A stretch of 64,000 bases of DNA from an uncultured bacterium (GCA_964436955.1 CAYTFC010000002.1:583-64582), one strand, 5' to 3'. Numbered from the stretch's first letter, positions 570 to 11,162 are shown. A program made the numbers and translations. Notes: generated by a model from the sequence alone, not told the origin.

Positions 570-2402
570 GTGTCAGAGGAACTAGATGATGCCTATCGCT
601 CTTTGTATGACGTAACGATTCCAGACTTGGATTACTATTTACGTCAGATTGATTGTCGCGATGGATGTCCTGTCAATACCGACGGTCGTGGCTACATGTT
701 GGCTATCCATGCTGGCAATCTTTTGGAAGGATACAAGATTGCGCGTGGACCCAATCCGTTTGCATCCGTCTGTGGGATGATTTGCGGAGCTCCTTGCGAA
801 ATCACATGTCGTCGCGATCGCGTTGACAAAACGCTTACTATTCGAGCACAGAAGCGTTACTTGGATGAGTGGTTTGGGCATGATCAAAACGCACTCAATC
901 GTTCCTTAGAATTTAGTTACGCACGCGGATCGATTAATTCTACACCTAATGGCTTAAAAGTGGCGTGTGTGGGAGCTGGCGTAGCTTCATTGACATGTGC
1001 TCATGATCTTCTTCGTTTGGGTTATGCAGTTGACGTTTTTGAATCAATGGCCCTGCCAGGCGGCATGTTAACGTACGGTGTTCCTAGCTACCGACTGAAG
1101 AATAGACTCGCTGTAGCAGAATGCCGAGCTATCGAGCATTTAGGCGCCAATGTCTATTACAATACTAAGATCGGTCGTGACATCACGATGAACCAGCTGG
1201 AAGAAAAGTATGATGCCATCTTCATTGGCATAGGCTTATGGAAATCTCGGGACTTGCCAATCCCAGGAGCTGAAGGTCCTGATGTCATTCGCGGGGTGGA
1301 GTATCTGCGGGTTTTGTGTGCGGACGATCGATGGCCTATCGGGAAGCGGATTGTTGTTGTGGGCGGAGGTAACGTTGCGTTTGACGTAGCACGTTCCTCT
1401 GTGCGTAATGGTGCGGACAGTGTGACAATGGTATGCTTAGAATCGCGTGATGAACAGACAGCCGATGAATTTGAGATCGAAGATGGCATGGAAGAAGGTA
1501 TTACGATTGTCAATCGAGTAGGGCCGATATCAGTAGAACGTGACACGGAAGGAAGAGTCAGCGGCCTGCGCGTTCAACCTATTTATAGCCTATTTGATAG
1601 TCAAGGCCGCTTTGCACCGAAATTTATTTCAGATTCACAGTATGTCATTCCATGCGATACTTTGGCCCTGGCTATTGGACAAGCCATGGATCCCGCATTT
1701 TTAGATGGCTGGGATAAGCGTAATCAACTGGCACTAGACAGAGGCCTTATTAAAACAGAGCGAGGCACAGGACGCACTAGCGTACCTAAAGTGTATTCTG
1801 GTGGTGATGTGGGATTTGGCCCTGCTCTTTTTATTACGGCCATTCGCCATGGGCAAGAAGCGGCTAGAAGCATTGATAGCGACTTGCGTGGCACGACCCC
1901 CTACCGCGAGTATACCGCTGAATTTACAGAGATTGTACCGATGCGTGACAAGTCCTACTTACGTACTCGTTGGGCCCTACCAACTAGCCAACCTGTGCAT
2001 AGCCGCACAACGAATTTAGAATATGTTGAGAACAACTATACCGATGCTGCAGTCCATCAGCAGGCTAACCGTTGTTTGCAATGTCATGTTAGCCCTGTTT
2101 TCGATGGCAGCCTGTGCATTAAGTGCAATGGATGCGTCGATGTTTGCCCGACCAACTGTCTAAAGCAAGTGCATGTAAGCCAGCTTAACCTCGATGTCGG
2201 TGATGGCAGTTTGCGTCGTGCCGTCGATAACTTTTTTGGTGTCGATACGATGGAAATGACTCAGGAAGAACTCCATTTAATGGGCTCCGCCATGTTAAAA
2301 GATGAAGACTTGTGCATCCGCTGTGGATTGTGTGCAGAAAAGTGTCCCACCCAGGCAGTGACAATGGATGCTATGAACTATTCCTTTAGATGGATAGGAT
2401 AG
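570..2402 (+). CDS. NAD(P)H-dependent FAD oxidoreductase, glutamate synthase small-subunit (GltD)-like, with a C-terminal 2x[4Fe-4S] ferredoxin domain
   Basis: N-terminal Cys cluster region (CPVNTDGRGY...CGMICGAPCEITC). Two dinucleotide-binding motifs (VACVGAGVASL; VVVGGGNVAFD). Two CxxCxxCxxxCP motifs (CIKCNGCVDVCP, CIRCGLCAEKCP). GTG start at 570 preceded by GAGGAG. Confidence 0.8.
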   Translation: MSEELDDAYRSLYDVTIPDLDYYLRQIDCRDGCPVNTDGRGYMLAIHAGNLLEGYKIARGPNPFASVCGMICGAPCEITCRRDRVDKTLTIRAQKRYLDEWFGHDQNALNRSLEFSYARGSINSTPNGLKVACVGAGVASLTCAHDLLRLGYAVDVFESMALPGGMLTYGVPSYRLKNRLAVAECRAIEHLGANVYYNTKIGRDITMNQLEEKYDAIFIGIGLWKSRDLPIPGAEGPDVIRGVEYLRVLCADDRWPIGKRIVVVGGGNVAFDVARSSVRNGADSVTMVCLESRDEQTADEFEIEDGMEEGITIVNRVGPISVERDTEGRVSGLRVQPIYSLFDSQGRFAPKFISDSQYVIPCDTLALAIGQAMDPAFLDGWDKRNQLALDRGLIKTERGTGRTSVPKVYSGGDVGFGPALFITAIRHGQEAARSIDSDLRGTTPYREYTAEFTEIVPMRDKSYLRTRWALPTSQPVHSRTTNLEYVENNYTDAAVHQQANRCLQCHVSPVFDGSLCIKCNGCVDVCPTNCLKQVHVSQLNLDVGDGSLRRAVDNFFGVDTMEMTQEELHLMGSAMLKDEDLCIRCGLCAEKCPTQAVTMDAMNYSFRWIG

Positions 2403-2403
2403 C

Positions 2404-2544
2404 ATGTTGATAGACCTGTTTTTGACCCTTGCAGCCGGTTGTGCAGCCTTACTCGTGTTTTTGTTTTATTGGCGCAAGGGACAGTTTGACGACGCCGAGG
2501 ACATCAAATACCAGATGTTTCGTGATGAAAATGAAGAACCTTAG
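2404..2544 (+). CDS. ccoS: CcoS/FixS-like cbb3 oxidase maturation peptide (46 aa, not in the ORF track)
   Basis: My translation is MLIDLFLTLAAGCAALLVFLFYWRKGQFDDAEDIKYQMFRDENEEP*. It has one TM helix followed by W-R-K-G-Q-F-D-D and an acidic tail, as I recall for CcoS/FixS. The ATG lies 1 nt after the upstream stop, with AGGA 4 nt upstream. Confidence 0.6.
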   Translation: MLIDLFLTLAAGCAALLVFLFYWRKGQFDDAEDIKYQMFRDENEEP

Positions 2545-2607: not shown

Positions 2608-3120
2608 GTGATGCCTAAGCTACGCAACTCATTAAATGTGGATCCAGACGATAAGGATCCCCGTATCTCCCGTCGATCCTTCCTTGCCCTGCTAGGGGTG
2701 GGAGTAGGAATTGGCGCGCTAAACCTAATTGGAGCGTCAGTATTGGGCTTTTTATATCCTAATGCCATGAAGATTCCCCCATCGGTGTTTTCGTTAGGAC
2801 GACCCGATGACGTGCTTGCGACTCAAGGAAAGGTGTTCGTTCCCAAACAAAAGGTATTTATCGATTCTGAAAATGGAAAAGTAAGAGTGCAAACCGCTGT
2901 TTGCACACATTTAGGCTGCACCGTTCACATGGTAGAAACAGGATATCAGTGTCCTTGCCATGGATCCACTTATGACCAGCTTGGCCACAATACGGGTGGT
3001 CCGGCGCCGAGCCCATTAGTGTTTTATAAATGCTTTTTGGGTGCCTCAGGAGAAATTATGTGCGACAAATCTCAGACAACCTTGGATGACAAGGAAGCCT
3101 GGTTTTCGCCTAAAGTATAA
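2608..3120 (+). CDS. Rieske [2Fe-2S] subunit with a twin-arginine signal
   Basis: Tat motif SRRSFLALLG. Rieske boxes CTHLGC and CPCHGS. The start is GTG 2608 or ATG 2611. Confidence 0.9.
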   Translation: MMPKLRNSLNVDPDDKDPRISRRSFLALLGVGVGIGALNLIGASVLGFLYPNAMKIPPSVFSLGRPDDVLATQGKVFVPKQKVFIDSENGKVRVQTAVCTHLGCTVHMVETGYQCPCHGSTYDQLGHNTGGPAPSPLVFYKCFLGASGEIMCDKSQTTLDDKEAWFSPKV

Positions 3121-3132
3121 GAGCTTGTAACT

Positions 3133-4458
3133 ATGGCAGTTTTCCAGGGATCACCGCGTGAATCATGGCTGGAGTACCTCGCTAACCTCCCGCGCATGTT
3201 CATACGCTCGATCTTTCGACATAACTATCCTAATAATGATGTCGATCGCTCTGAAATCGTATTTAAGAACTTCTTTCTGCACTTCCATCCAGTCAAGTGT
3301 CACAAAAATAGTACCGATCCCTTTTACACATTAGGTCTTGGGGCTATCTCAACCAGCCTATTTTTGATACTGACTTGGACCGGTGTTGTTCTGATGTTCT
3401 TCTACATACCCACTGTGGACCGTGCTTATGACATCATGAAGGATTGGCAGGATACGACACCATTTGCGCAGATGTACCGCAACATGCATCGTTGGGCAGC
3501 GCATTTGATGGTGATGTTTGTGATGCTGCACATGTCGCGGGTCTTTTATACCGGCTCCTATAAAGGAGAACGCCGCTTTAATTGGGTGATCGGCGTCATT
3601 CTGATGGTACTGACGCTCCTGCTATCATTCACTGGATATCTTCTACCTTGGGACCAGTTAGCCTTTTGGGCTATTACGGTAGGATCCGAAATTGCAGGGT
3701 ATGCCCCCAATCTGCCTGGCTTTCAGTATAATGTGAACCGTGTCATGCTACTAGCCTCCACTAGCGTAGGTCAGGATGCTCTCATTCGCTTTTATGTGCT
3801 GCATGTGGTGGTACTGCCATTGGTGGCCGGCACCTTGATTGGTGTACACTTTTGGCGCATTCGCAAGGATGGAGGACTATCGCGCCCTCCCGACCGTGTC
3901 AGACCCGATCCATTAAGAGTCGTCCAACGATCCGATAGCAAAGAGGTATTTGCTCCGGGAGTGAAACGAACCTATGGTTTGATGGAGCTTGTACGAGGCA
4001 CCTGTCCCACCGTAGATAAGGGGCCATACAACTTTGTCTTTAGCTGGCCGAACCTTCTGCGTGCGGAGATGGTGGCCTTCTTACTTACTTTGGTGCTAAC
4101 GTTGGCGCTTTCTTTCATTGACGCGCCATTGGAGGAACCTGCTAACCCCGCCGCTCCTCCGAACCCTTCCAAAGCTCCCTGGTACTTTCTTGGGCTGCAG
4201 GAAATGGTAGCTTACAGCGCCTTCTGGGGCGGCGTTGGTATTCCTACGCTCATGGTGCTGGGTTTGATGGCAGTACCCTATCTCGACCGTAATCCTCATG
4301 GGACGGGCTATTGGTTCCATCGCAGCCGCTATTTGGCGATCTTTTTGTGGACACTCTTTATGACCAGTCAAGCTCTACTCATCGTCATTGGAACGTTTTT
4401 TAGAGGAGCTAACTGGGGATGGATTTGGCCGTGGACAGAAACTTTCTCGCGGCATTAA
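3133..4458 (+). CDS. Cytochrome b (b6 and subunit-IV-like parts in one 441-aa polypeptide)
   Basis: Polytopic membrane protein with cytochrome b signatures (RNMHRWAAHLMVMFVMLHMSRVF; LPWDQLAFWAITVG; FYVLHVVVLP). Lies directly after the Rieske gene. Confidence 0.9.
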   Translation: MAVFQGSPRESWLEYLANLPRMFIRSIFRHNYPNNDVDRSEIVFKNFFLHFHPVKCHKNSTDPFYTLGLGAISTSLFLILTWTGVVLMFFYIPTVDRAYDIMKDWQDTTPFAQMYRNMHRWAAHLMVMFVMLHMSRVFYTGSYKGERRFNWVIGVILMVLTLLLSFTGYLLPWDQLAFWAITVGSEIAGYAPNLPGFQYNVNRVMLLASTSVGQDALIRFYVLHVVVLPLVAGTLIGVHFWRIRKDGGLSRPPDRVRPDPLRVVQRSDSKEVFAPGVKRTYGLMELVRGTCPTVDKGPYNFVFSWPNLLRAEMVAFLLTLVLTLALSFIDAPLEEPANPAAPPNPSKAPWYFLGLQEMVAYSAFWGGVGIPTLMVLGLMAVPYLDRNPHGTGYWFHRSRYLAIFLWTLFMTSQALLIVIGTFFRGANWGWIWPWTETFSRH

Positions 4459-4481
4459 AGCGGTATTAAAAGGGAGAAATC

Positions 4482-7400
4482 GTGCGATCGGAACTCTATC
4501 AAATATCCTTGATCCTACTCCTAGTGGTATCCGCCGCACTCTTTGGCGTGTTCTTGGCGCGCGAACTCTTTCCGCAATACAGAGTTTTTCAGCAGGATTA
4601 TATTGCGTTAGAGGAATTTCGCTCATCATTAACGCATGAGCCAATGGCGCCTTTTGACATTGGAATTAGACAGATAGTTCTCACACAAAGTAATAACGGC
4701 CCTGAAATTGTTGATCGCTGCACAAGTTGCCACGTGGCGCTTCAACTTAGCCACTTTTCCCCCACTAAACCTGCGCAGGATGTCAATGGCGAAGCCTTGC
4801 TTGATGAACAGGGATATCCCGTTTCAGTTCCGAACGAATCCTATGTGTGGAAGCAGTTAGATGAACGTATAGCTGAACTCAAATCGCAGGATAAGCTATC
4901 TGAAGCCGAGCAGTTGGAGTCCCTGAAGAAGGCATACATCGGCGGGGCCGAGGTGGATATGACCAAAGCCTTGGCTATGCATCCCCTCATAGGTAAGGAA
5001 ACCCGCCCCTTTCAGTTTCATCCCATTGAAGAATATGGCTGCACCGTATGTCATAATGGCAACGGTAGAGCCCTTACCATTGAAAAGGCTCATGGGCCTG
5101 TATTTGATGGCCAATACCCGACTTCGTTTGAAGGGCCAGTACCGCAATTTTTAGAGATTGACGAACAGAACGATCCCTCCTTTTCAAGAGTGTTTAATCA
5201 TAAGCCAGGTCACGAACTTTTGTTCCAGACAACACCCATCTTCGTGGGAGAGCTAATCCAAGCTAACTGTGTACAATGTCATTTATCATCCACTTCTCAG
5301 CTTAATAGCGTGGTGACGACCGTATCTGAGCTTAAGGGACAGTCCGCACAGCAAACAAAGGACGTTCAAAAAGCCTATGAAGACGAAAAGAAGGCGTTGG
5401 CAACCCTGCTTATCCTTCGTTCCGATATTCTAAAAAATGGATTTGGGAATACGCTAAAAAGACTAATAGATAACGAGACGAACTATCACCTCACACAGTT
5501 AGAGCGCAATGCAGCGGCCGCGCAAGTGATCTATCTGACCCAGGCAGTTGCAAATCTATCCGAAAGTGACCCCACAGGACAACAGCAAGCCGCTGTAGCC
5601 AGAATTCAAAGGGATATCGTTATTTCGTTAGGCACAGAAGATCTTGCTTCGGCCTTAGAAAAAGAACTACAGGGCAAAGATAGCAACTCATCCGCGCTAT
5701 TCGATACATTTGTTAAAACACATAGTCAATCGAAAGGACAACTCTTTATCAAAGCAGCAGCAGTCGATAGACAGCAGATATCTCTAAAGCATATCGACAA
5801 AGCGGAAAGCTCTTTGAGCAATTCTCTCGGTCAAGAGCAAGTTAAGAAAGCGGCGGCCACGGATATTGATCGCATGATCAAATGCTACTTACAAGGTGAG
5901 CAGCTCTATATTTCTCAAGCATGCTACGCATGCCATCGAATCGCTGGTTTCGCTCGTGGAGGTGTTGGCCCAGAACTTACCAATGAAGGTTTCAAGTATC
6001 CGTGGTTCATTAAGCAGTCAGTCGTATGGCCTCAGGCAGATCTACCCAGCTCTACAATGCCAAACTATCGTTTGGATCACCAAGAACTGGAAGCTCTAAC
6101 CTGCTATATGTTGGCTCAAAAAGGCCGTCCCAACGCGGTTTCTCAGGTGGACTACAATACAACCATCAAACAATGGGAAGAAGGTAAGAAGAAGCCTTGG
6201 GAAGCTCCGGTTCCACCATCCAAGATACATGATTTACATTACGGAATGACAGTATTTGCAACTGAAGGATGCGCAGCTTGTCACCGCTTAAAGGGATTTC
6301 AATCCAATGTTGGCTTCGCGGTAGAGAAAGACAAGGTACCTACTTTTGATGAGATGTATCGTGAACGCAACTGGTTTACAAGTTTGTTCCCAGAAGACCT
6401 AATGGGAAGCCAAATAGTGAAAGTGATCGAAGAAAATGCAGCGGAACTGGACAAGCGTATTGTAGATCATGTGCGACATGATTCCATTATTGAAGAAATT
6501 CAAAGGGACCACCCACAAATAATCGAAGCTCTCTATTCAGGCTTTAGATACGCCTCACGCGCTAAGCCAGACAGCCAATGGAAGGAACGTGTTGAGCGAG
6601 TCTTAAAGACCTATATTCAGGAATATGGTCTAGGACGGCTTGTAGGACCCAGGCCCAATTGGTCGGGCATCTATCGCTCTGATGAATGGCTGATTGCGCA
6701 TTTTTACAATCCCGGCGCCCATGTGGCACGCTCCATTATGCCGGTGTTTCCGTTTGATGAGACCAAGTTCTATGCTCTTACTTATATGCTAGACATTCTG
6801 GCCCCATTAAACGCTGCTAATGTACGTGAAATTTGGGATAACCGCGGGTTTAACCCTGAACTAGCGTTTCATATATATTGTGCTCAATGTCATGGGGACT
6901 TCAGGCAAGGCGATGGACCGGTGGCCCAATGGCTATACCCTATCCCTAAGAACCTACGTAACGGCTCATTCCTAAACAACCTAACCAGAGAGCGAGTTGC
7001 GGAGTCTATTATACATGGCGTTAAGGGAACTCCAATGCCGCCTTGGGGAGAAATAGCCAGAGACAAGCCATTCCCCATAAAAATTCCAGTATTAACCGAA
7101 GAGGAAGCGCATCAACTCACCAATTGGCTGTTTCTGAGTCTCCCAGGTGGTGATGTAGATGAACCCGATAACATGAAGTGGAAGTATCAACCTGAAGACG
7201 TGATCAGGGAACTCCACGGTGAAGGCGATCAACTTCATAGCAATCTATCGTCGGTGTCTCACTTATTGGCATCTAACAAGCCAATAGCAATAACATCACC
7301 TTCTCAGCAGGAAGTCGATGACATTTTTGACGAACGTAATTATCCCATACCTGGAGTTAAGCGTAAGGCTTACTACATAAAAGAGAAGTACTACACACCG

Positions 7401-8438
7401 TTGAATATAGCCCAAGGCGAGAGTGTTTTCATCGAAAACTGTGCTATCTGTCATGGTAAAGAAGGAGCCGGTAATGGCTTAAGAGCCGGTAGTATGACGG
7501 AATCAAAGCCTCGTATGCTTACAAATCTGGATTGGATAGCAACTCGTGATGACCTGCGCTTGCTTCAATCCATCAAATTTGGCGTTCTTGGTACCTCCAT
7601 GACTCCCTGGGGCGATTTTACAAGCACGCTGCAAAGATTGCAATTGGTCATGTACATTCGCAGCCTGAGCCGAGAGCATGCACTGCGTGAACATCTTTCG
7701 GACATCATCTATCAATCCTTCGATCGCGCCTTGGAAACTGTGCGGCAGTCTCAAATAGAAGAGGACGTTAAGTTTCAAGAACTGGATAAAGCGTACAATA
7801 CAGCAAAGTCTTTTAAGATAGATCAGGAAGCCAATCTAGCGATAAACAAAACGGCCGTACCAGCACTTGTCGATGCCTATCAAAAAGAACTGTCGCTTGG
7901 GGAACAACTTAAGAAACAAGAAACTATTGATAATGCAATCTCTGACTTAATTGCTGAAATAAAGAAGCAACGCGATATTTTTACTTCACTGGGAAGTACA
8001 GCTCTAGCATCTTTAGGTGAAAGTGATGTTTCAGACGGGATTTTAGACTTAATAGGTCTAAATGCTGTCCATTATGAGTACCATGATGGAAAGCTCACCT
8101 TGGATAATTATTCCGCTGATCCAGCCGTCATTGTTAACACCGGTAAGCAAGTACTTGCTTTGCTGGAAAAAGACATCCCCTCACTAGAAAAAGAACTGAA
8201 AGGCATGGACGCACAAGCGGCTTCCACCGAAGCACGTGAGAGAATTGCTGAACTAAACCAACGTGTGAAGGGGCTTAATCAAATTAAGGTCCTAGTACTA
8301 ACAACACTAGAGGACTCCGCACGCTCAAAACAGAGACAGGAAAGCCTTGTGGAACGCATTCATGGTCTCAAAGAAGCCTTAAGGCAAAGCGAACCGGCTA
8401 CTCAAGAAAAAGCGAAACAAAGAAATACCAATGAATGA
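4482..8438 (+). CDS. Membrane-anchored heptahaem c-type cytochrome (1318 aa) with a CcoP-like di-haem module and a coiled-coil tail
   Basis: N-terminal TM helix. Seven CxxCH motifs: CTSCH, CTVCH, CVQCH, CYACH, CAACH, CAQCH, CAICH. The last two sit in class-I cytochrome c contexts (CAQCHGDFRQGDGP...MPPWG; CAICHGKEGAGNG...MTPWG). GTG start preceded by AAAGGGAG. Confidence 0.85.
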   Translation: MRSELYQISLILLLVVSAALFGVFLARELFPQYRVFQQDYIALEEFRSSLTHEPMAPFDIGIRQIVLTQSNNGPEIVDRCTSCHVALQLSHFSPTKPAQDVNGEALLDEQGYPVSVPNESYVWKQLDERIAELKSQDKLSEAEQLESLKKAYIGGAEVDMTKALAMHPLIGKETRPFQFHPIEEYGCTVCHNGNGRALTIEKAHGPVFDGQYPTSFEGPVPQFLEIDEQNDPSFSRVFNHKPGHELLFQTTPIFVGELIQANCVQCHLSSTSQLNSVVTTVSELKGQSAQQTKDVQKAYEDEKKALATLLILRSDILKNGFGNTLKRLIDNETNYHLTQLERNAAAAQVIYLTQAVANLSESDPTGQQQAAVARIQRDIVISLGTEDLASALEKELQGKDSNSSALFDTFVKTHSQSKGQLFIKAAAVDRQQISLKHIDKAESSLSNSLGQEQVKKAAATDIDRMIKCYLQGEQLYISQACYACHRIAGFARGGVGPELTNEGFKYPWFIKQSVVWPQADLPSSTMPNYRLDHQELEALTCYMLAQKGRPNAVSQVDYNTTIKQWEEGKKKPWEAPVPPSKIHDLHYGMTVFATEGCAACHRLKGFQSNVGFAVEKDKVPTFDEMYRERNWFTSLFPEDLMGSQIVKVIEENAAELDKRIVDHVRHDSIIEEIQRDHPQIIEALYSGFRYASRAKPDSQWKERVERVLKTYIQEYGLGRLVGPRPNWSGIYRSDEWLIAHFYNPGAHVARSIMPVFPFDETKFYALTYMLDILAPLNAANVREIWDNRGFNPELAFHIYCAQCHGDFRQGDGPVAQWLYPIPKNLRNGSFLNNLTRERVAESIIHGVKGTPMPPWGEIARDKPFPIKIPVLTEEEAHQLTNWLFLSLPGGDVDEPDNMKWKYQPEDVIRELHGEGDQLHSNLSSVSHLLASNKPIAITSPSQQEVDDIFDERNYPIPGVKRKAYYIKEKYYTPLNIAQGESVFIENCAICHGKEGAGNGLRAGSMTESKPRMLTNLDWIATRDDLRLLQSIKFGVLGTSMTPWGDFTSTLQRLQLVMYIRSLSREHALREHLSDIIYQSFDRALETVRQSQIEEDVKFQELDKAYNTAKSFKIDQEANLAINKTAVPALVDAYQKELSLGEQLKKQETIDNAISDLIAEIKKQRDIFTSLGSTALASLGESDVSDGILDLIGLNAVHYEYHDGKLTLDNYSADPAVIVNTGKQVLALLEKDIPSLEKELKGMDAQAASTEARERIAELNQRVKGLNQIKVLVLTTLEDSARSKQRQESLVERIHGLKEALRQSEPATQEKAKQRNTNE

Positions 8439-9897
8439 TACAGCTACAGTCCCCTCAACGCCACAATTTGAAGATCTACCCGTCAAGCTGTTTGTGTATC
8501 CCGCCATTGTTTTTATGGTCATAGGGATGTTTTTTGGCGTCTTTATTTCCTTTAATGGAATGGTGATGCCTGATTATTGGGCTGGTGAATACATTCACTT
8601 TGGGCGCATGCGTCCGGTACATGTTGGCCATGTTCTATTCTTATGGTTGTTGCCTGCTAATTTTGGATTGATTTTCTATATTACTCAAAGATTGTGCGGT
8701 GTGACGCTATGGAGTCGCTCGCTGGGAATATGGTCTGCAGCGCTTTACTGGCTTGCGCTTGTTCCAGGAACCTATTCATTTCCTTGGGGAACCAACTTTG
8801 GGTGGGAATATGCCGAGTTTCCCATGTGGTTGGGTTGGCTTCCGGTAAAATTCATGCTCTTATTTGCTTGGATACTGATCACCATTAACATTTACATGAC
8901 CATAGCCAACCGCAAGTATGATAAGCTCTATGTTTCCCTCTGGTATATCCTAGCCACGTTACTGTGGGGAGGGATTAGCTACTTCGCAGGAAACTGGGTA
9001 ATCAACATGGTACCCCAGGGGATCTCTCGAGTGAATATGAGTTTTTTCTATGTTCATAATTTGGTGGGGTTAATTTTTACACCCATGGGCTTAGCCATTG
9101 CTTATTATTTCTTACCCAAAATGGCAAAGACGCCTATCTATAGCCATAAACTATCCCTCATTGGTTTTTGGTCCATTGCATTTGTGTATGCATGGGTAGG
9201 ATCACACCATATTATTCACGGACCCATGTCACAGTGGATTCAAACAGTAGCGATCATTTTTTCCGTTTGGCTGTTTATTCCCGTATGGTCAGCGGTTACA
9301 AACCTATTCGGTACACTTAAAGGCAATTGGCATAAGTATAATGAGAATGCGGCCATCCGATTTATCATAATGGGAACGCTTTTTTACTTGATGGTGAGTA
9401 CGCAAGGAACATTCATGGCTGTGCGTAACGTCAATGAAATCACATCCAAGACAGATTGGATCATTGGACACGCTCATATGTCGCTCTATGGTACGTTCAC
9501 CTTTTTCGCAATAGCGGGCATTTATGGGGCCTTGCCGGCCCTTTCCGGAAACCCCCTCTATTCAAAGCGCATGGCTGATTGGCATTTTACGCTAAACATG
9601 CTAGGAGCTTCCCTCATGTTCATTGCACTGCACGTTGGTGGCTTTTTCCAAGGTCTTCAATGGGCTACATGGGCTGATGGCGATAGCTACCGTGTATTTC
9701 AAAATAACCTCAGTAAGCTCCAATTTTTGGACACTATTGCCAGCATGCATTACTTTTGGCTGACACGTACAATTTCCGGTCTGTTTATTTTTGCCGGAAA
9801 CTGCATCTTTGTCGTGAATGTCTTTAATACCATTTTACTCAAGCCACGGCCTCGTCCAGTCCAGGCCCAAACCGTAGTTGTAGGAACGCTAGCATAA
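8431..9897 (+). CDS. ccoN: cbb3-type (C-family) haem-copper oxidase subunit I
   Basis: A 488-aa polytopic protein with about 12 TM helices and conserved His patches (WVGSHHIIHGPM; IGHAHMSLYG). The next gene is FixO-like. Its start overlaps the upstream stop (ATGAATGA). Confidence 0.85.
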   Translation: MNDTATVPSTPQFEDLPVKLFVYPAIVFMVIGMFFGVFISFNGMVMPDYWAGEYIHFGRMRPVHVGHVLFLWLLPANFGLIFYITQRLCGVTLWSRSLGIWSAALYWLALVPGTYSFPWGTNFGWEYAEFPMWLGWLPVKFMLLFAWILITINIYMTIANRKYDKLYVSLWYILATLLWGGISYFAGNWVINMVPQGISRVNMSFFYVHNLVGLIFTPMGLAIAYYFLPKMAKTPIYSHKLSLIGFWSIAFVYAWVGSHHIIHGPMSQWIQTVAIIFSVWLFIPVWSAVTNLFGTLKGNWHKYNENAAIRFIIMGTLFYLMVSTQGTFMAVRNVNEITSKTDWIIGHAHMSLYGTFTFFAIAGIYGALPALSGNPLYSKRMADWHFTLNMLGASLMFIALHVGGFFQGLQWATWADGDSYRVFQNNLSKLQFLDTIASMHYFWLTRTISGLFIFAGNCIFVVNVFNTILLKPRPRPVQAQTVVVGTLA

Positions 9898-9899
9898 TT

Positions 9900-11162
9900 A
9901 TGACCGATCCTCATATCACTCCAAAAATCGAAAAATCCGCTATCTACACGATGATCGGAATTGCTTTGCTATTTCTATCATCCATTTTAGCTACCGTTTT
10001 GGCTCCAAATCTCATTGACCCCAGCTGGGTGGAACCATCCAGTCACTTTCAGGTACAAATGTATGAAGTGGCTGATGCTCATCTGTACGCAGCACGTGCT
10101 CTGCCGGGATCGCCTACACTCGATTATGTGCACCATTTAAAGCAGGGATATTCCCTGATGGCGTTTCAAGAAACGGAACAACTGCGCATCCTCGCAGATC
10201 CTACCTTAGATCGTTATGTAACTCGCTTTGGTGAAAAGGATCTTAAGCTGACTACAAAAGTAATGCTGCTACGTAAACCCACCGGAGACTCCTTTGATAA
10301 AGCCGAAAAGCTTCGTGTAGAGGCCCAAAAGCTGTGGGAAGCCAAGAATCCAAATTGGAAGGATCGGGGACTAATACGCATGGATTATGGTGTGCTGGAG
10401 CTCTATGACCCAAAAATAGACGAAGCCTTTGCGCAAGCACGCACGGAGGGAACTTCAGAACACTATGTCGATAAAAATTTTACCATCTTGGATGGCCCCA
10501 AGCAAAAATATCATAACGATACAGGCGTCATATATGTTCTCAATCCCGAGGAATATCGCTTCCGTCACGTAGGCATTGGAAGCATTCAAGGGTATCGCTA
10601 CGACCCCAACGGCCAGTCTGTCAAAGATATTGCGCAATTAACTGGACCTGAATTGGGTTTTATATCTCGTAAAGATCTCATAGCTATGGGTGAGCACATC
10701 TTTGCGATAGAAGGATGCTGGTATTGTCATACAGATCAAAGCCGCACACTGATTCAAGACTGTGTACTCAATGGTGGAGCAGCCTATGCCGCCCCACCCT
10801 CATCAGGTAACGAGTATATCTTTCAGAAAATCACTTTTCCAGGCACGCGCCGTATCGGCCCAGACCTGGCTAGAGTGGGAGTTAAGCGGCCCAGTCGAGA
10901 TTGGCATAAAGGGCACTTCTGGCAGCCTCGTACGCCAAGTCCGGGAAGCATTATGCCATCCTTTAGGCATTTCTTTGATGATGACCCTCGCGGACAATCC
11001 TCTAGCCAAATTGGAATCCCAAACTATCGCTTTGAGGCCATGTACCAGTATTTGATGACCAAGGGAACGCGCATTACCGCGCCAACGCAAGCCTGGTGGT
11101 TAGGTAAGGACCCCTTGCATACGACCGAGATTATTGAAGGACTGAGAACCGTAGAGCCTTAG
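9900..11162 (+). CDS. ccoO: cbb3 oxidase monohaem subunit II (CcoO/FixO-like) with a long insertion between the TM anchor and the haem domain
   Basis: TM anchor at aa 15-35. The haem motif CWYCH appears only near aa 273. A FixO-like block follows (GPDLARVGVKRPSRDWHKGHFWQPRTPSPGSIMPSF). Confidence 0.8.
   Translation: MTDPHITPKIEKSAIYTMIGIALLFLSSILATVLAPNLIDPSWVEPSSHFQVQMYEVADAHLYAARALPGSPTLDYVHHLKQGYSLMAFQETEQLRILADPTLDRYVTRFGEKDLKLTTKVMLLRKPTGDSFDKAEKLRVEAQKLWEAKNPNWKDRGLIRMDYGVLELYDPKIDEAFAQARTEGTSEHYVDKNFTILDGPKQKYHNDTGVIYVLNPEEYRFRHVGIGSIQGYRYDPNGQSVKDIAQLTGPELGFISRKDLIAMGEHIFAIEGCWYCHTDQSRTLIQDCVLNGGAAYAAPPSSGNEYIFQKITFPGTRRIGPDLARVGVKRPSRDWHKGHFWQPRTPSPGSIMPSFRHFFDDDPRGQSSSQIGIPNYRFEAMYQYLMTKGTRITAPTQAWWLGKDPLHTTEIIEGLRTVEP

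What the first reader, a model, noticed from the sequence alone, without database searches (positions are those of the whole stretch)
4482..8438. 1318-aa heptahaem cytochrome c with long coiled-coil inserts, apparently merging cytochrome c1-equivalent and CcoP functions
There are seven CxxCH motifs spread over 1000 aa. A low-complexity, helical Gln/Glu/Lys-rich insert of about 200 aa lies between haems 3 and 4. A coiled-coil tail of about 230 aa follows haem 7. The last two haem sites have class-I contexts like the two domains of CcoP. Its stop codon overlaps the ccoN start. The size and coiled-coil content are unusual for an electron carrier.
Basis: partly seen in the sequence, partly recalled or inferred. 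Interest (0 to 1): 0.6.

Follow-up and report, generated by a model that had tools for sequence, protein, structure and literature searches.

The report
Inflated seven-haem cytochrome linking bc to cbb3
This 1318-residue, membrane-anchored, seven-haem protein of an environmental chlamydia is real and conserved; it most likely carries electrons directly from a quinol-oxidising Rieske/cytochrome b complex to the oxygen-reducing cbb3 oxidase encoded next to it, and it is a 2.3-fold enlarged version of a ~585-residue protein found in the same operon in other phyla.

Summary
ORF 4482-8438 encodes 1318 aa with one N-terminal TM helix and seven CxxCH motifs, and its stop overlaps the ccoN start.

It is not an artefact. 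More than 120 full-length orthologues (45-64% identity) keep all seven motifs. The gene order GltD-like/FixS/Rieske/cyt b/heptahaem/CcoN/CcoO is kept across Chlamydiota.

The genome has no cytochrome c1, no CcoP and no small soluble cytochrome c.

It is an expanded member of a wider, uncharacterised family. Compact ~565-620-aa heptahaems (Pontiella and others) sit in the same operon, and all seven haems and seven candidate axial ligands align. The chlamydial protein adds about 724 aa in six segments.

The "coiled coils" are confidently predicted helical bundles. They are not low-complexity sequence and are not homologous to each other.

New here: the ~190-aa bundle between haems 3 and 4 is facultative. 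It was cleanly deleted at least nine separate times among 75 chlamydial orthologues, so it is not part of the electron wire. The tail is never lost.

This scan has already found and followed up the same family in other chlamydial genomes.

The parts
570..2402 (+). GltD-like NAD(P)-binding Fe-S flavoprotein, first gene of the operon
   Evidence: Pfam Pyr_redox_2, Fer4_20 and Fer4. The same gene heads the operon in 66 of 80 chlamydial loci and in the compact operons L098, L099, L101 and L102.
2404..2544 (+). 46-aa FixS/CcoS-like cbb3 maturation peptide
   Evidence: Pfam PF03597 FixS, E 3.2e-6, 27.2 bits, over the cut-off. A FixS gene sits at the same position in L098, L101 and L102.
2608..3120 (+). 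Rieske iron-sulfur protein
   Evidence: PF00355. The best NCBIfam models are the b6f and bc1 Rieske subunits, all below cut-off.
3133..4458 (+). Cytochrome b (b6-like part fused to a subunit-IV-like part)
   Evidence: PF00033 and PF13631, with weak PF00032. NCBIfam ExtP matches aa 44-250 and ExtQ matches aa 302-434.
4482..8438 (+). Heptahaem cytochrome c, 1318 aa (the finding)
4494..4562 (+). N-terminal TM anchor (aa ~5-27). It is followed by a conserved juxtamembrane motif (E28, P31, Y33, Q37).
   Evidence: It is the only hydropathy peak. The motif residues are invariant in 121 orthologues. Related W/Y-Q motifs occur in the compact homologues.
4563..5312 (+). Trihaem module (aa 28-277). Haems are at C80, C187 and C263. 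Candidate distal histidines are H167, H180 and H204. It contains lineage-specific insertions at aa 94-158 and 206-244.
   Evidence: The motifs and the three extra histidines are invariant in chlamydial and compact homologues. Pfam c7/MtrC-type hits are weak. A profile of this module finds 427 proteins at E <= 1e-3. Insertions were mapped.
5313..5879 (+). Facultative helical-bundle insert between haems 3 and 4 (aa 278-466)
   Evidence: AF2 predicts helices with block-mean pLDDT mostly 82-98 over aa ~280-450. The segment is absent from compact homologues. It is reduced to 28-61 aa in 12 of 75 chlamydial orthologues, requiring at least 9 separate changes on the tree. Foldseek finds no specific match. 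It is not homologous to the tail.
5880..6161 (+). Class I / CcoO-like haem domain 4 (aa 467-560; haem at C481, candidate axial Met M526)
   Evidence: PF00034 matches aa 471-545. hhalign relates it to domain 5 at 93% probability. M526 and P527 are invariant.
6162..6851 (+). CcoO-like haem domain 5 (aa 561-790; haem at C597, candidate axial Met M753), with a 111-aa helical insertion at aa 610-720
   Evidence: PF02433 FixO matches aa 721-762 at 37.3 bits, over the cut-off. The domain profile hits PDB CcoO chains 9g83_u and 6xkw_o at E ~2e-4. The insertion was mapped and is predicted helical with pLDDT 85-97.
6852..7157 (+). Class I haem domain 6 (aa 791-892; haem at C800, candidate axial Met M852)
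   Evidence: PF13442. hhalign relates it to domain 7 at 98.6% probability. It aligns with the second domain of 6h5l_B.
7158..7373 (+). Lineage-specific linker (aa 893-964), partly low-confidence
7374..7691 (+). Class I, CcoP-like haem domain 7 (aa 965-1070; haem at C987, candidate axial Met M1040)
   Evidence: PF13442 matches aa 975-1051. TIGR00782 ccoP gives E 2.6e-12, below its cut-off. PDB matches are 6h5l_B (E 1.8e-9), 3mk7_C and 6f0k_E.
7692..8435 (+). Haem-free helical tail (aa 1071-1318)
   Evidence: AF2 predicts helices of 58, 56, 12, 30 and 55 residues, with block-mean pLDDT mostly 83-95. Sequence identity among orthologues is only 13-30%, but the length is kept. The tail is never lost: haem 7 to the C-terminus spans 194-343 aa in 55 orthologues, against 81 aa in Pontiella. 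Foldseek finds only generic helical-bundle matches.
8431..9897 (+). CcoN (cbb3 subunit I); its start overlaps the heptahaem stop by 8 nt
   Evidence: PF00115, 262 bits. TIGR00780 ccoN, 273 bits.
9900..11162 (+). CcoO-like monohaem subunit, 420 aa, with an extra region of about 230 aa before the haem domain
   Evidence: PF02433 matches aa 262-365. Motifs CWYCH and GSIMPSF are present. The median length in chlamydial loci is 422 aa, against 181-200 aa in compact operons.

Best explanation
**What it is.** The protein is the c-type cytochrome subunit of a hard-wired respiratory module. A single N-terminal TM helix with a conserved juxtamembrane motif holds it next to the Rieske/cytochrome b complex. 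The rest of the protein lies in the periplasm.

**Proposed electron path.**
1. Quinol is oxidised by the Rieske/cyt b complex, and the Rieske cluster passes electrons to the closely spaced N-terminal trihaem module. This module probably has bis-His ligation through H167, H180 and H204.
2. Electrons then pass through two CcoO-like His/Met domains (haems 4 and 5).
3. They continue through a CcoP-like pair of His/Met domains (haems 6 and 7).
4. They reach the haem of the CcoO-like subunit and then CcoN, where O2 is reduced.

The protein therefore replaces cytochrome c1, a diffusible cytochrome c and CcoP.

**Relation to other proteins.** The seven-haem core is inherited from a compact (~585 aa) family found in the same operon in other phyla. 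Chlamydiae added about 724 aa of mostly helical, folded insertions. I infer that these are structural accessories: clamps or struts around the periplasmic face of the supercomplex. The largest internal one, between haems 3 and 4, is dispensable.

**Shown:** the sequence anatomy, its conservation, the operon, the absence of alternative carriers, and the repeated loss of the insert.

**Inferred:** the direction and order of electron flow, the axial ligands, physical supercomplex formation, and the role of the insertions.
For: **Conservation.**
- The seven CxxCH motifs are invariant in 120 of the 121 proteins (window protein plus its orthologues). The single exception is a one-residue difference in one record.
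- The motifs are also collinear with 20 compact heptahaems.
- H167, H180, H204, M526, M753, M852 and M1040 are invariant in both the chlamydial and the compact groups.

**Operon.**
- The order GltD-like/Rieske/cyt b/heptahaem/CcoN/CcoO is kept in most of 80 chlamydial loci.
- The same order, with the FixS gene called, occurs in Pontiella desulfatans and in two other unrelated contigs. There CcoG, DsbD and CcoI follow downstream. The window itself carries the FixS-like ORF at the same position.
- Five chlamydial genomes lack an adjacent ccoN but carry a ccoN-like gene elsewhere.

**No alternative carriers in this genome (98.75% complete).**
- It has no c1.
- Its only c-type cytochromes are this protein, the CcoO-like subunit and a TsdA-like dihaem.
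- System II cytochrome c biogenesis genes are present.
- The other oxidases are an A-type enzyme and cytochrome bd. In chlamydiae these are described as quinol oxidases (PMC9816063).

**Domain identities.**
- Domain 5 resembles CcoO.
- Domains 6 and 7 resemble CcoP or dihaem cytochromes.

**Insertions.**
- AF2 predicts the inserts as confident helical domains, with pTM 0.80 and 0.70 for the two parts.
- The haem 3-4 insert was deleted in frame, with different borders, at least 9 times.

Against: - No biochemical data exist for any member of the family. I found no paper describing this protein.
- Bis-His multihaem modules usually have low potentials, which makes them an awkward acceptor for a Rieske cluster. 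The potentials here are unknown.
- A six-haem relative in Bryobacteraceae sits in a Rieske/cyt b operon with no cbb3 genes nearby. A five-haem relative is followed by a separate small cytochrome c. The wire can therefore serve other partners or be split.
- Some chlamydial genomes have ccoNO unlinked from the operon.
- The trihaem part of the AF2 model has low confidence.
Confidence: 0.75

Rival explanations
1. It is only the c subunit of the Rieske/cyt b complex. It hands electrons to several partners by collision and does not form a fixed complex with cbb3. The TsdA-like dihaem and cbb3 would be loosely coupled clients.
For: Relatives occur in Rieske/cyt b operons without cbb3. ccoNO is unlinked in five chlamydial genomes. 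A TsdA-like dihaem cytochrome exists in this genome.
Against: The stop/start overlap with ccoN and the near-universal adjacency across phyla argue for co-assembly. The CcoO-like and CcoP-like modules are built into the protein. No CcoP is available to act as a docking subunit.
Confidence: 0.13
2. It is essentially an oversized CcoP, that is, a cbb3 subunit, as the Pontiella genome paper's 'ccoNOP' label implies. The Rieske/cyt b complex would use some other acceptor.
For: Domains 6 and 7 match CcoP models. The Pontiella paper lists ccoNOP (PMC7356697).
Against: - The TIGR00782 score is far below its cut-off, 46.7 against 180.
- The gene lies upstream of ccoN, directly after cyt b.
- The N-terminal TM plus trihaem module is shared with Rieske/cyt b operons that lack cbb3.
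- No other c-type acceptor for the Rieske protein is encoded.
Confidence: 0.05
3. The helical insert and tail are functional modules in their own right. They might be periplasm-spanning struts, oligomerisation or regulatory elements tied to the chlamydial envelope or developmental cycle, rather than passive scaffolding.
For: - Helices of 55-58 residues are predicted with high confidence.
- The tail is never lost in 55 orthologues.
- CcoO is inflated in parallel, but only in Chlamydiota.
- In Protochlamydia, respiratory genes are expressed late in the developmental cycle (PMC5451489).
Against: - The inserts evolve fast, at 13-30% identity with very few invariant residues.
- The internal bundle was deleted at least 9 times without loss of the gene.
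- Foldseek finds no specific structural relatives.
Confidence: 0.15
4. It is an assembly artefact, a frameshifted fusion of several normal cytochromes, or a pseudogene.
For: None beyond the unusual size. One related locus from a long-read assembly (L011) does show the operon broken into pieces.
Against: More than 120 full-length orthologues from independent assemblies cover 97-100% of the query. Open frames of 901-1452 aa occur in 87 genomes. AF2 models both halves with confidence.
Confidence: 0.01

Closest known systems
Compact heptahaem cytochromes c (~565-620 aa) of the GltD-like/FixS/Rieske/cyt b/heptahaem/CcoN/CcoO operon. Examples are Pontiella desulfatans PDESU_00656 (584 aa) and relatives from metagenomes. 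They are annotated only as 'c-type cytochrome' or 'mono/diheme cytochrome c family protein'.
   Same: - One N-terminal TM helix.
- Seven collinear CxxCH motifs.
- The same seven candidate axial ligands.
- The same domain order: trihaem, two CcoO-like domains, two CcoP-like domains.
- The same operon position between cyt b and ccoN.
   Different: - The chlamydial protein carries about 724 extra residues in six segments.
- Sequence identity in the shared parts is only about 25-35%.
- The neighbouring CcoO is also inflated in Chlamydiota, 420 aa against 181-200 aa.
Multihaem cytochrome c subunits of the Kuenenia stuttgartiensis Rieske/cyt b complexes Kuste4569-4574 and Kustd1480-1485 (hexa- or octahaem, with an NAD(P) oxidoreductase subunit)
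   Same: - The complexes are b6f-like Rieske/cyt b complexes with a multihaem c in place of cytochrome f or c1.
- A GltD-like NAD(P) oxidoreductase gene is part of the cluster.
- Published trees group Parachlamydia and Waddlia cyt b with Kuenenia complexes 1 and 2 (PMC3509893).
- Kustd1485 is modelled with long helices wrapping the complex.
   Different: - The haem numbers differ.
- No cbb3 oxidase is attached in the anammox clusters.
- I did not test direct homology of the c subunits, because those sequences were not retrievable here.
CcoP (cbb3 oxidase subunit III; PDB 3mk7 chain C)
   Same: Domains 6 and 7 are a tandem of class I His/Met cytochrome c domains. They match CcoP models and sit in a cbb3 operon that has no CcoP of its own.
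   Different: - The score is far below the family cut-off.
- The TM anchor is about 960 residues away from these domains.
- The gene precedes ccoN instead of following ccoO and ccoQ.
- The protein carries five further haems.
Dihaem cytochrome cc (QcrC) of actinobacterial bcc-aa3 supercomplexes, and ActA/ActE of Alternative Complex III-aa3 supercomplexes
   Same: The principle is the same. A membrane-anchored multihaem c subunit hard-wires a quinol oxidase module to a haem-copper oxidase without a diffusible cytochrome c. Weak matches occur to QcrC (NF050122) and to ActE (6f0k_E).
   Different: The families, haem numbers, partner oxidase type (A-type rather than cbb3) and quinol-oxidising module (for ACIII) all differ.

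Membership tests
Cytochrome c1 (PF02167) | Sequence match to the c1 family model | tested here: not met
   No PF02167 match anywhere in the genome at E <= 0.1. The model does not appear in the Pfam scan of the protein.
Cytochrome c1 (PF02167) | Single haem and a C-terminal TM anchor | tested here: not met
   The protein has seven haem motifs, and its only hydrophobic segment is N-terminal.
CcoP (TIGR00782) | Score above the equivalog cut-off (179.95 bits) | tested here: not met
   46.7 bits, covering only aa 968-1063.
CcoP (TIGR00782) | Two tandem class I cytochrome c domains | tested here: met
   Domains 6 and 7 match PF13442. hhalign relates them at 98.6% probability. Foldseek matches the pair to the dihaem 6h5l_B with TM 0.64 normalised to the target.
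CcoP (TIGR00782) | Gene located downstream of ccoN and ccoO in the cco operon | tested here: not met
   The gene lies upstream of ccoN, directly after cyt b.
CcoO / FixO (PF02433) | Full-length match including the N-terminal TM anchor, as the sole monohaem subunit bound to CcoN | tested here: not met
   Only profile positions 102-143 match, in domain 5 (37.3 bits). A separate CcoO-like gene follows ccoN. This is domain-level relatedness only.
Compact heptahaem cytochromes of the GltD/FixS/Rieske/cyt b/.../CcoNO operon (unnamed family) | Seven collinear CxxCH motifs behind one N-terminal TM helix | tested here: met
   All seven motif columns align with 20 compact members.
Compact heptahaem cytochromes of the GltD/FixS/Rieske/cyt b/.../CcoNO operon (unnamed family) | Conserved candidate axial ligands (three His, four Met-Pro) | tested here: met
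   H167, H180, H204, M526, M753, M852 and M1040 are invariant in 20 compact and 8 chlamydial rows, and in 121 chlamydial rows.
Compact heptahaem cytochromes of the GltD/FixS/Rieske/cyt b/.../CcoNO operon (unnamed family) | Operon position between cyt b and ccoN | tested here: met
   Window; L098, L101 and L102.
Kuenenia-type ('group A2') Rieske/cyt b complexes with a multihaem c subunit | b6-like cyt b plus a subunit-IV-like part, and a GltD-like NAD(P) oxidoreductase gene in the cluster | tested here: met
   Pfam and NCBIfam results for 570-2402 and 3133-4458. The published grouping of Parachlamydia and Waddlia cyt b with Kuenenia complexes 1 and 2 (PMC3509893) was not recomputed for this genome.
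Kuenenia-type ('group A2') Rieske/cyt b complexes with a multihaem c subunit | Homology of the c subunit itself to Kuste4573 or Kustd1485 | not tested
   Those sequences could not be fetched with the tools available. Only the literature description was used.
Canonical (inter-chain) coiled coil | Long heptad-repeat helices that pair between chains | tested here: inconclusive
   AF2 monomer models give several 30-58-residue helices that fold back into bundles. Foldseek finds only generic 3- and 4-helix bundles and BAR-like folds at E > 0.01. Oligomeric state could not be modelled.

The most novel reading that the evidence does not exclude
The whole operon encodes one fixed machine. A Rieske/cyt b core passes the high-potential electron of quinol oxidation down the heptahaem wire straight into cbb3 and O2. 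It sends the low-potential electron through the b haems to the GltD-like subunit, which reduces NAD(P)+. This would be an O2-driven, quinol-dependent NAD(P)H generator of the kind proposed but never shown for anammox complexes. In chlamydiae, the added helical bundles and the inflated CcoO would be the clamps that keep this supercomplex together in an unusual envelope.
Probability: 0.15. Interest if true: 0.8.

Novelty: new variant of a known kind. Interest (0 to 1): 0.5.

Why it matters
- **A new route from quinol to O2.** If the reading is right, environmental chlamydiae, together with Kiritimatiellota, Acidobacteriota and other lineages that carry the compact form, run it through a single hard-wired seven-haem chain. 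They would need no cytochrome c1, no diffusible cytochrome c and no CcoP. That would be a third independent solution to the complex III-IV wiring problem, after actinobacterial bcc-aa3 and ACIII-aa3, and the first one built on cbb3.
- **Annotation.** Pangenome studies of chlamydiae list only 'PetBD' and 'CcoNO' (PMC9816063). The subunit that connects them is annotated merely as 'c-type cytochrome' or 'putative membrane protein'.
- **A natural experiment.** The chlamydial inflation of about 724 aa, with one 190-aa bundle repeatedly deleted, shows which parts of the protein are core and which are accessory. Insert-less natural variants are ready-made constructs for structural work.
- **The GltD-like subunit.** It links this module to the unresolved question of whether such complexes bifurcate electrons to NAD(P)+.

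Tried and rejected
- **Stand-alone relatives of the trihaem module.** A word-based search returned almost only truncated chlamydial fragments. The one divergent hit, P0146, lies in an operon broken into pieces in a long-read assembly. I treat it as a degraded or error-ridden copy, not an ancestor.
- **PDB searches for the trihaem module.** A sequence profile found nothing. Foldseek on the N-terminal model found only generic bundles at E > 0.1. The trihaem part of that model is low-confidence, so the fold search says little about it.
- **Insert and tail as duplicates.** Rejected: hhalign probability 0.2%.
- **Length of CcoO's extra region against each insertion.** Spearman correlations are weak, at most 0.49, and are confounded by relatedness and by a few truncated ORFs. 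I draw no conclusion from them.
- **Other apparent multi-CxxCH ORFs in the genome.** Judged from their sequences, they look like DnaJ-, MsrB- and NifU-type proteins and similar, not cytochromes.
- **Literature.** Searches for a description of this protein found none.

Full report
**1. The observation**

The window has an uninterrupted ORF at 4482-8438 (+) of 1318 codons. It starts with GTG, with AGGGAG 7 nt upstream.

The protein has seven CxxCH motifs, at residues 80, 187, 263, 481, 597, 800 and 987. These use 14 of its 16 cysteines. From the protein's own composition I expect about 0.005 such motifs by chance.

The only hydrophobic stretch is N-terminal, at aa ~5-27. Because c-type haem is attached on the outer side of the membrane, the remaining ~1290 residues must be periplasmic. 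This follows from established knowledge of cytochrome c biogenesis. The genome encodes the System II proteins ResB and CcsA.

The stop codon overlaps the ATG of the next gene as ATGAATGA.

**2. It is a real, conserved gene**

A search of 5.8 billion proteins returned more than 600 hits. The best 120 are almost all 1260-1430 aa long, 45-64% identical and cover 97-100% of the query. Where named, they come from Chlamydiales, Parachlamydiaceae, Waddlia and Protochlamydia.

In a 121-sequence alignment every CxxCH is invariant, with a single exception discussed in section 8.

In a sample of 401 Chlamydiota genomes, 87 (64 of 212 genera) carry the gene, with open frames of 901-1452 aa. It is absent from the small-genome (~1.1 Mb) family (0 of 30) and from several other families. 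A frameshift or mis-assembly is excluded.

**3. Context**

Pfam and NCBIfam identify the neighbours as follows:

| Window position | Gene |
|---|---|
| 570-2402 | GltD-like NAD(P)/FAD/Fe-S protein |
| 2404-2544 | 46-aa FixS-like peptide |
| 2608-3120 | Rieske protein |
| 3133-4458 | b6-like cytochrome b fused to a subunit-IV-like part |
| 4482-8438 | the heptahaem protein |
| 8431-9897 | CcoN |
| 9900-11162 | 420-aa CcoO-like monohaem protein |

- This order is kept in most of 80 chlamydial loci.
- Five genomes lack ccoN next to the gene, and all carry a ccoN-like gene elsewhere.
- The window's genome is 98.75% complete. It has no cytochrome c1.
- Its only c-type cytochromes are this protein, the CcoO-like subunit and a 295-aa TsdA/SoxA-like dihaem. 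Other ORFs with CxxCH look from their sequences like DnaJ, MsrB and similar proteins.
- The other oxidases are an A-type enzyme and cytochrome bd. These are described for chlamydiae as quinol oxidases (PMC9816063).
- The Rieske/cyt b-cbb3 branch is thus the only cytochrome-c-dependent route, and this protein is the only candidate to connect its two ends.

**4. Anatomy**

- **aa 28-277, trihaem module.** The haems are closely spaced. Three further invariant histidines (H167, H180, H204) are natural candidates for bis-His ligation. Pfam gives only weak c7/MtrC-type hits.
- **aa 467-560 and 561-790, domains 4 and 5.** They are related to each other (hhalign 93%) and to the haem domain of CcoO. 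They carry the GP(E/D)L and S-x-M-P-x-F signatures. PF02433 matches aa 721-762 over its cut-off. A profile of this region hits CcoO chains in the PDB at E 2e-4.
- **aa 791-892 and 965-1070, domains 6 and 7.** They are a duplicated pair (hhalign 98.6%) of class I domains. They match PF13442, CcoP below threshold, the dihaem Kustc0457 (6h5l_B) and ActE of ACIII.
- **Axial methionines.** Each of the four class I domains has an invariant Met-Pro: M526, M753, M852 and M1040.

**5. The 'coiled coils'**

AF2 with a 66-sequence alignment gave pTM 0.80 and mean pLDDT 79.8 for aa 468-1318. It gave pTM 0.70 and pLDDT 78.3 for aa 1-480.

- The haem 3-4 region is predicted as seven helices. Block-mean pLDDT is mostly 82-98 over aa ~280-450.
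- The tail is predicted as helices of 58, 56, 12, 30 and 55 residues, with block-mean pLDDT mostly 83-95.
- These are folded helical bundles, not low-complexity sequence.
- They are not homologous to each other.
- They resemble nothing specific in the PDB.
- Their sequences drift fast, at 13-30% identity, while their length is kept.

**6. The protein is an inflated member of a wider family**

A profile of the trihaem module, searched against 1.84 billion representatives, found 61 proteins at E <= 1e-30, which I take to be the chlamydial family. It found 427 at E <= 1e-3. The distant hits are 170-690-aa proteins with the same TM helix, juxtamembrane motif and trihaem module, followed by a variable number of class I domains. 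Named examples come from Nitrospirota, 'Deltaproteobacteria', Bryobacteraceae and Pontiella.

Thirty-one of 63 such relatives have exactly seven haems in 564-618 aa. Pontiella desulfatans PDESU_00656 (584 aa) lies in the operon GltD-like/FixS/Rieske/cyt b/heptahaem/CcoN(450)/CcoO(194)/.../CcoG-like/DsbD/CcoI. Two unrelated contigs show the same arrangement, and a third shows a rearranged version.

Aligned against 20 compact members, all seven haem motifs and all seven candidate ligands of the window protein line up. What is chlamydia-specific are six segments: aa 94-158, 206-244, 278-466, 610-720, 893-964 and 1071-1318, about 724 aa in total.

The membrane subunits have ordinary sizes, but the periplasmic CcoO is also inflated (420 aa against 181-200 aa). 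Inflation is confined to the periplasmic c-type subunits.

Smaller relatives show that the family is modular. A six-haem protein occurs in a Rieske/cyt b operon without cbb3. A five-haem protein is followed by a separate small cytochrome c, then CcoN and CcoO.

**7. New here: the internal bundle is facultative**

Haem-to-haem spacings in the chlamydial orthologues with seven motifs compare with Pontiella as follows:

| Segment | Chlamydial orthologues | Pontiella |
|---|---|---|
| haem 4-5 | 113-117 aa | 119 aa |
| haem 2-3 | 73-77 aa | 37 aa |
| haem 5-6 insertion | always kept | smaller spacing |
| haem 7 to C-terminus | 194-343 aa (tail always kept) | 81 aa |
| haem 3-4 | usually 165-250 aa, but 28-61 aa in 12 of 75 orthologues | 29 aa |

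On a maximum-likelihood tree of the shared columns (quick IQ-TREE, SH-aLRT support only, rooted on five compact homologues), the short forms are scattered. The well-supported branches force at least nine changes of state.

Sister pairs show clean in-frame deletions with different borders. Each deletion keeps the flanking 'DLLT-NY-RG' lead-in to haem 4.

The simplest reading is one gain early in Chlamydiota followed by many independent losses. The bundle is therefore looped out between two modules that must already touch, and it is not needed for electron transfer. The tail and the other insertions are constitutive.

**8. Mechanism**

The best-supported reading (confidence 0.75) is that the protein is the c subunit of the Rieske/cyt b complex and at the same time the entry subunit of the cbb3 oxidase.

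- The TM helix and its conserved juxtamembrane motif anchor it beside cyt b and the Rieske protein.
- The trihaem module receives electrons from the Rieske cluster.
- The two CcoO-like domains and the CcoP-like pair relay them to the CcoO haem and then to CcoN.

The order of flow, the ligand assignments and the physical supercomplex are inferences. I regard the helical additions as structural clamps. A published AlphaFold3 model of the related Kuenenia complex shows the large multihaem subunit Kustd1485 wrapping long helices around the complex (bioRxiv 10.1101/2025.06.25.661457).

Published cytochrome b trees already group Parachlamydia and Waddlia with the two Kuenenia complexes that carry an NAD(P) oxidoreductase subunit (PMC3509893). 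This fits the GltD-like first gene and leaves open an electron-bifurcating role for the whole module.

**9. Known or new**

Multihaem c subunits of Rieske/cyt b complexes, and hard-wired III-IV supercomplexes, are known kinds. I found no paper that describes this heptahaem family or its chlamydial form. Chlamydial pangenome work lists only PetBD and CcoNO, and the Pontiella paper labels the genes ccoNOP.

By membership the protein is neither c1 nor CcoP nor CcoO. It is a member of the unnamed compact-heptahaem family. I rate it a new variant of a known kind.

The scan has already noted and followed up the same family in several other chlamydial genomes, with the same main conclusions. I reached the Pontiella comparison independently, before seeing those notes. 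What this report adds is the repeated, independent deletion of the haem 3-4 bundle and the exact insertion map.

**10. Limits**

- The tree used a quick search without bootstraps.
- The short-spacing variants come from metagenome assemblies. However, they are continuous open frames from 12 independent assemblies.

Noticed in passing
G000 contig C18, locus L002:423-1310 (+) (outside the window): A 295-aa membrane-anchored or secreted dihaem cytochrome c (CTNCH, CAKCH) with a SoxA/TsdA-type first domain (PF21342, just under its cut-off) and a class I second domain. It is the only c-type cytochrome in the genome apart from the cbb3-operon proteins. It could feed electrons from thiosulfate or another donor into the heptahaem/cbb3 branch.
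   Followed up: partly
window 2404-2544 (+): A 46-codon ORF between the GltD-like and Rieske genes is a FixS/CcoS-type cbb3 maturation peptide (PF03597, over the cut-off). The same small gene sits at the same position in the Pontiella and other compact operons.
   Followed up: yes
window 9900-11162 (+): The CcoO-like subunit is 420 aa, with about 230 extra residues between the TM anchor and the haem domain. Chlamydial orthologues have a median of 422 aa, whereas compact operons have 181-200 aa. The extra region matches no Pfam family.
   Followed up: partly
window 570-2402 (+): A GltD-like NAD(P)/FAD protein with ferredoxin-type clusters heads the operon, both here and in compact operons of other phyla. 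The Kuenenia Rieske/cyt b complexes, proposed to reduce NAD(P)+, have the same feature.
   Followed up: partly
Protein P0099 (Waddlia chondrophila type-strain record) compared with P0368 and P0369: The type-strain record has CYACL instead of CYACH at haem 4. This is the only difference in 1291 residues from strain 2032/99, and another assembled copy also has CYACH at this site. It is either a sequencing error or a culture-acquired loss of the proximal histidine.
   Followed up: partly
Locus L011 (ENA long-read contig), 3346-10937: A divergent copy of the operon appears broken into pieces: two Rieske ORFs, a 237-aa cyt b fragment, a 324-aa trihaem ORF, and separate FixO-like and cytochrome c ORFs, with no ccoN. 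It is either a decaying operon or uncorrected long-read frameshifts.
   Followed up: no
Protein P0255 (1352 aa, Logan contig of 7 kb): This is a different giant relative. About 200 residues of predicted coiled coil lie between the TM helix and haem 1, there are about eight haem motifs, and the C-terminus is acidic (D/E/W-rich). Inflation of this cytochrome family by helical segments seems to have happened more than once.
   Followed up: no
G000 contigs C33:9129-10478 and C8:34841-36136 (outside the window): The genome also encodes an A-type haem-copper oxidase subunit I (674-aa frame) and cytochrome bd subunit I. It therefore has three terminal oxidases.
   Followed up: no
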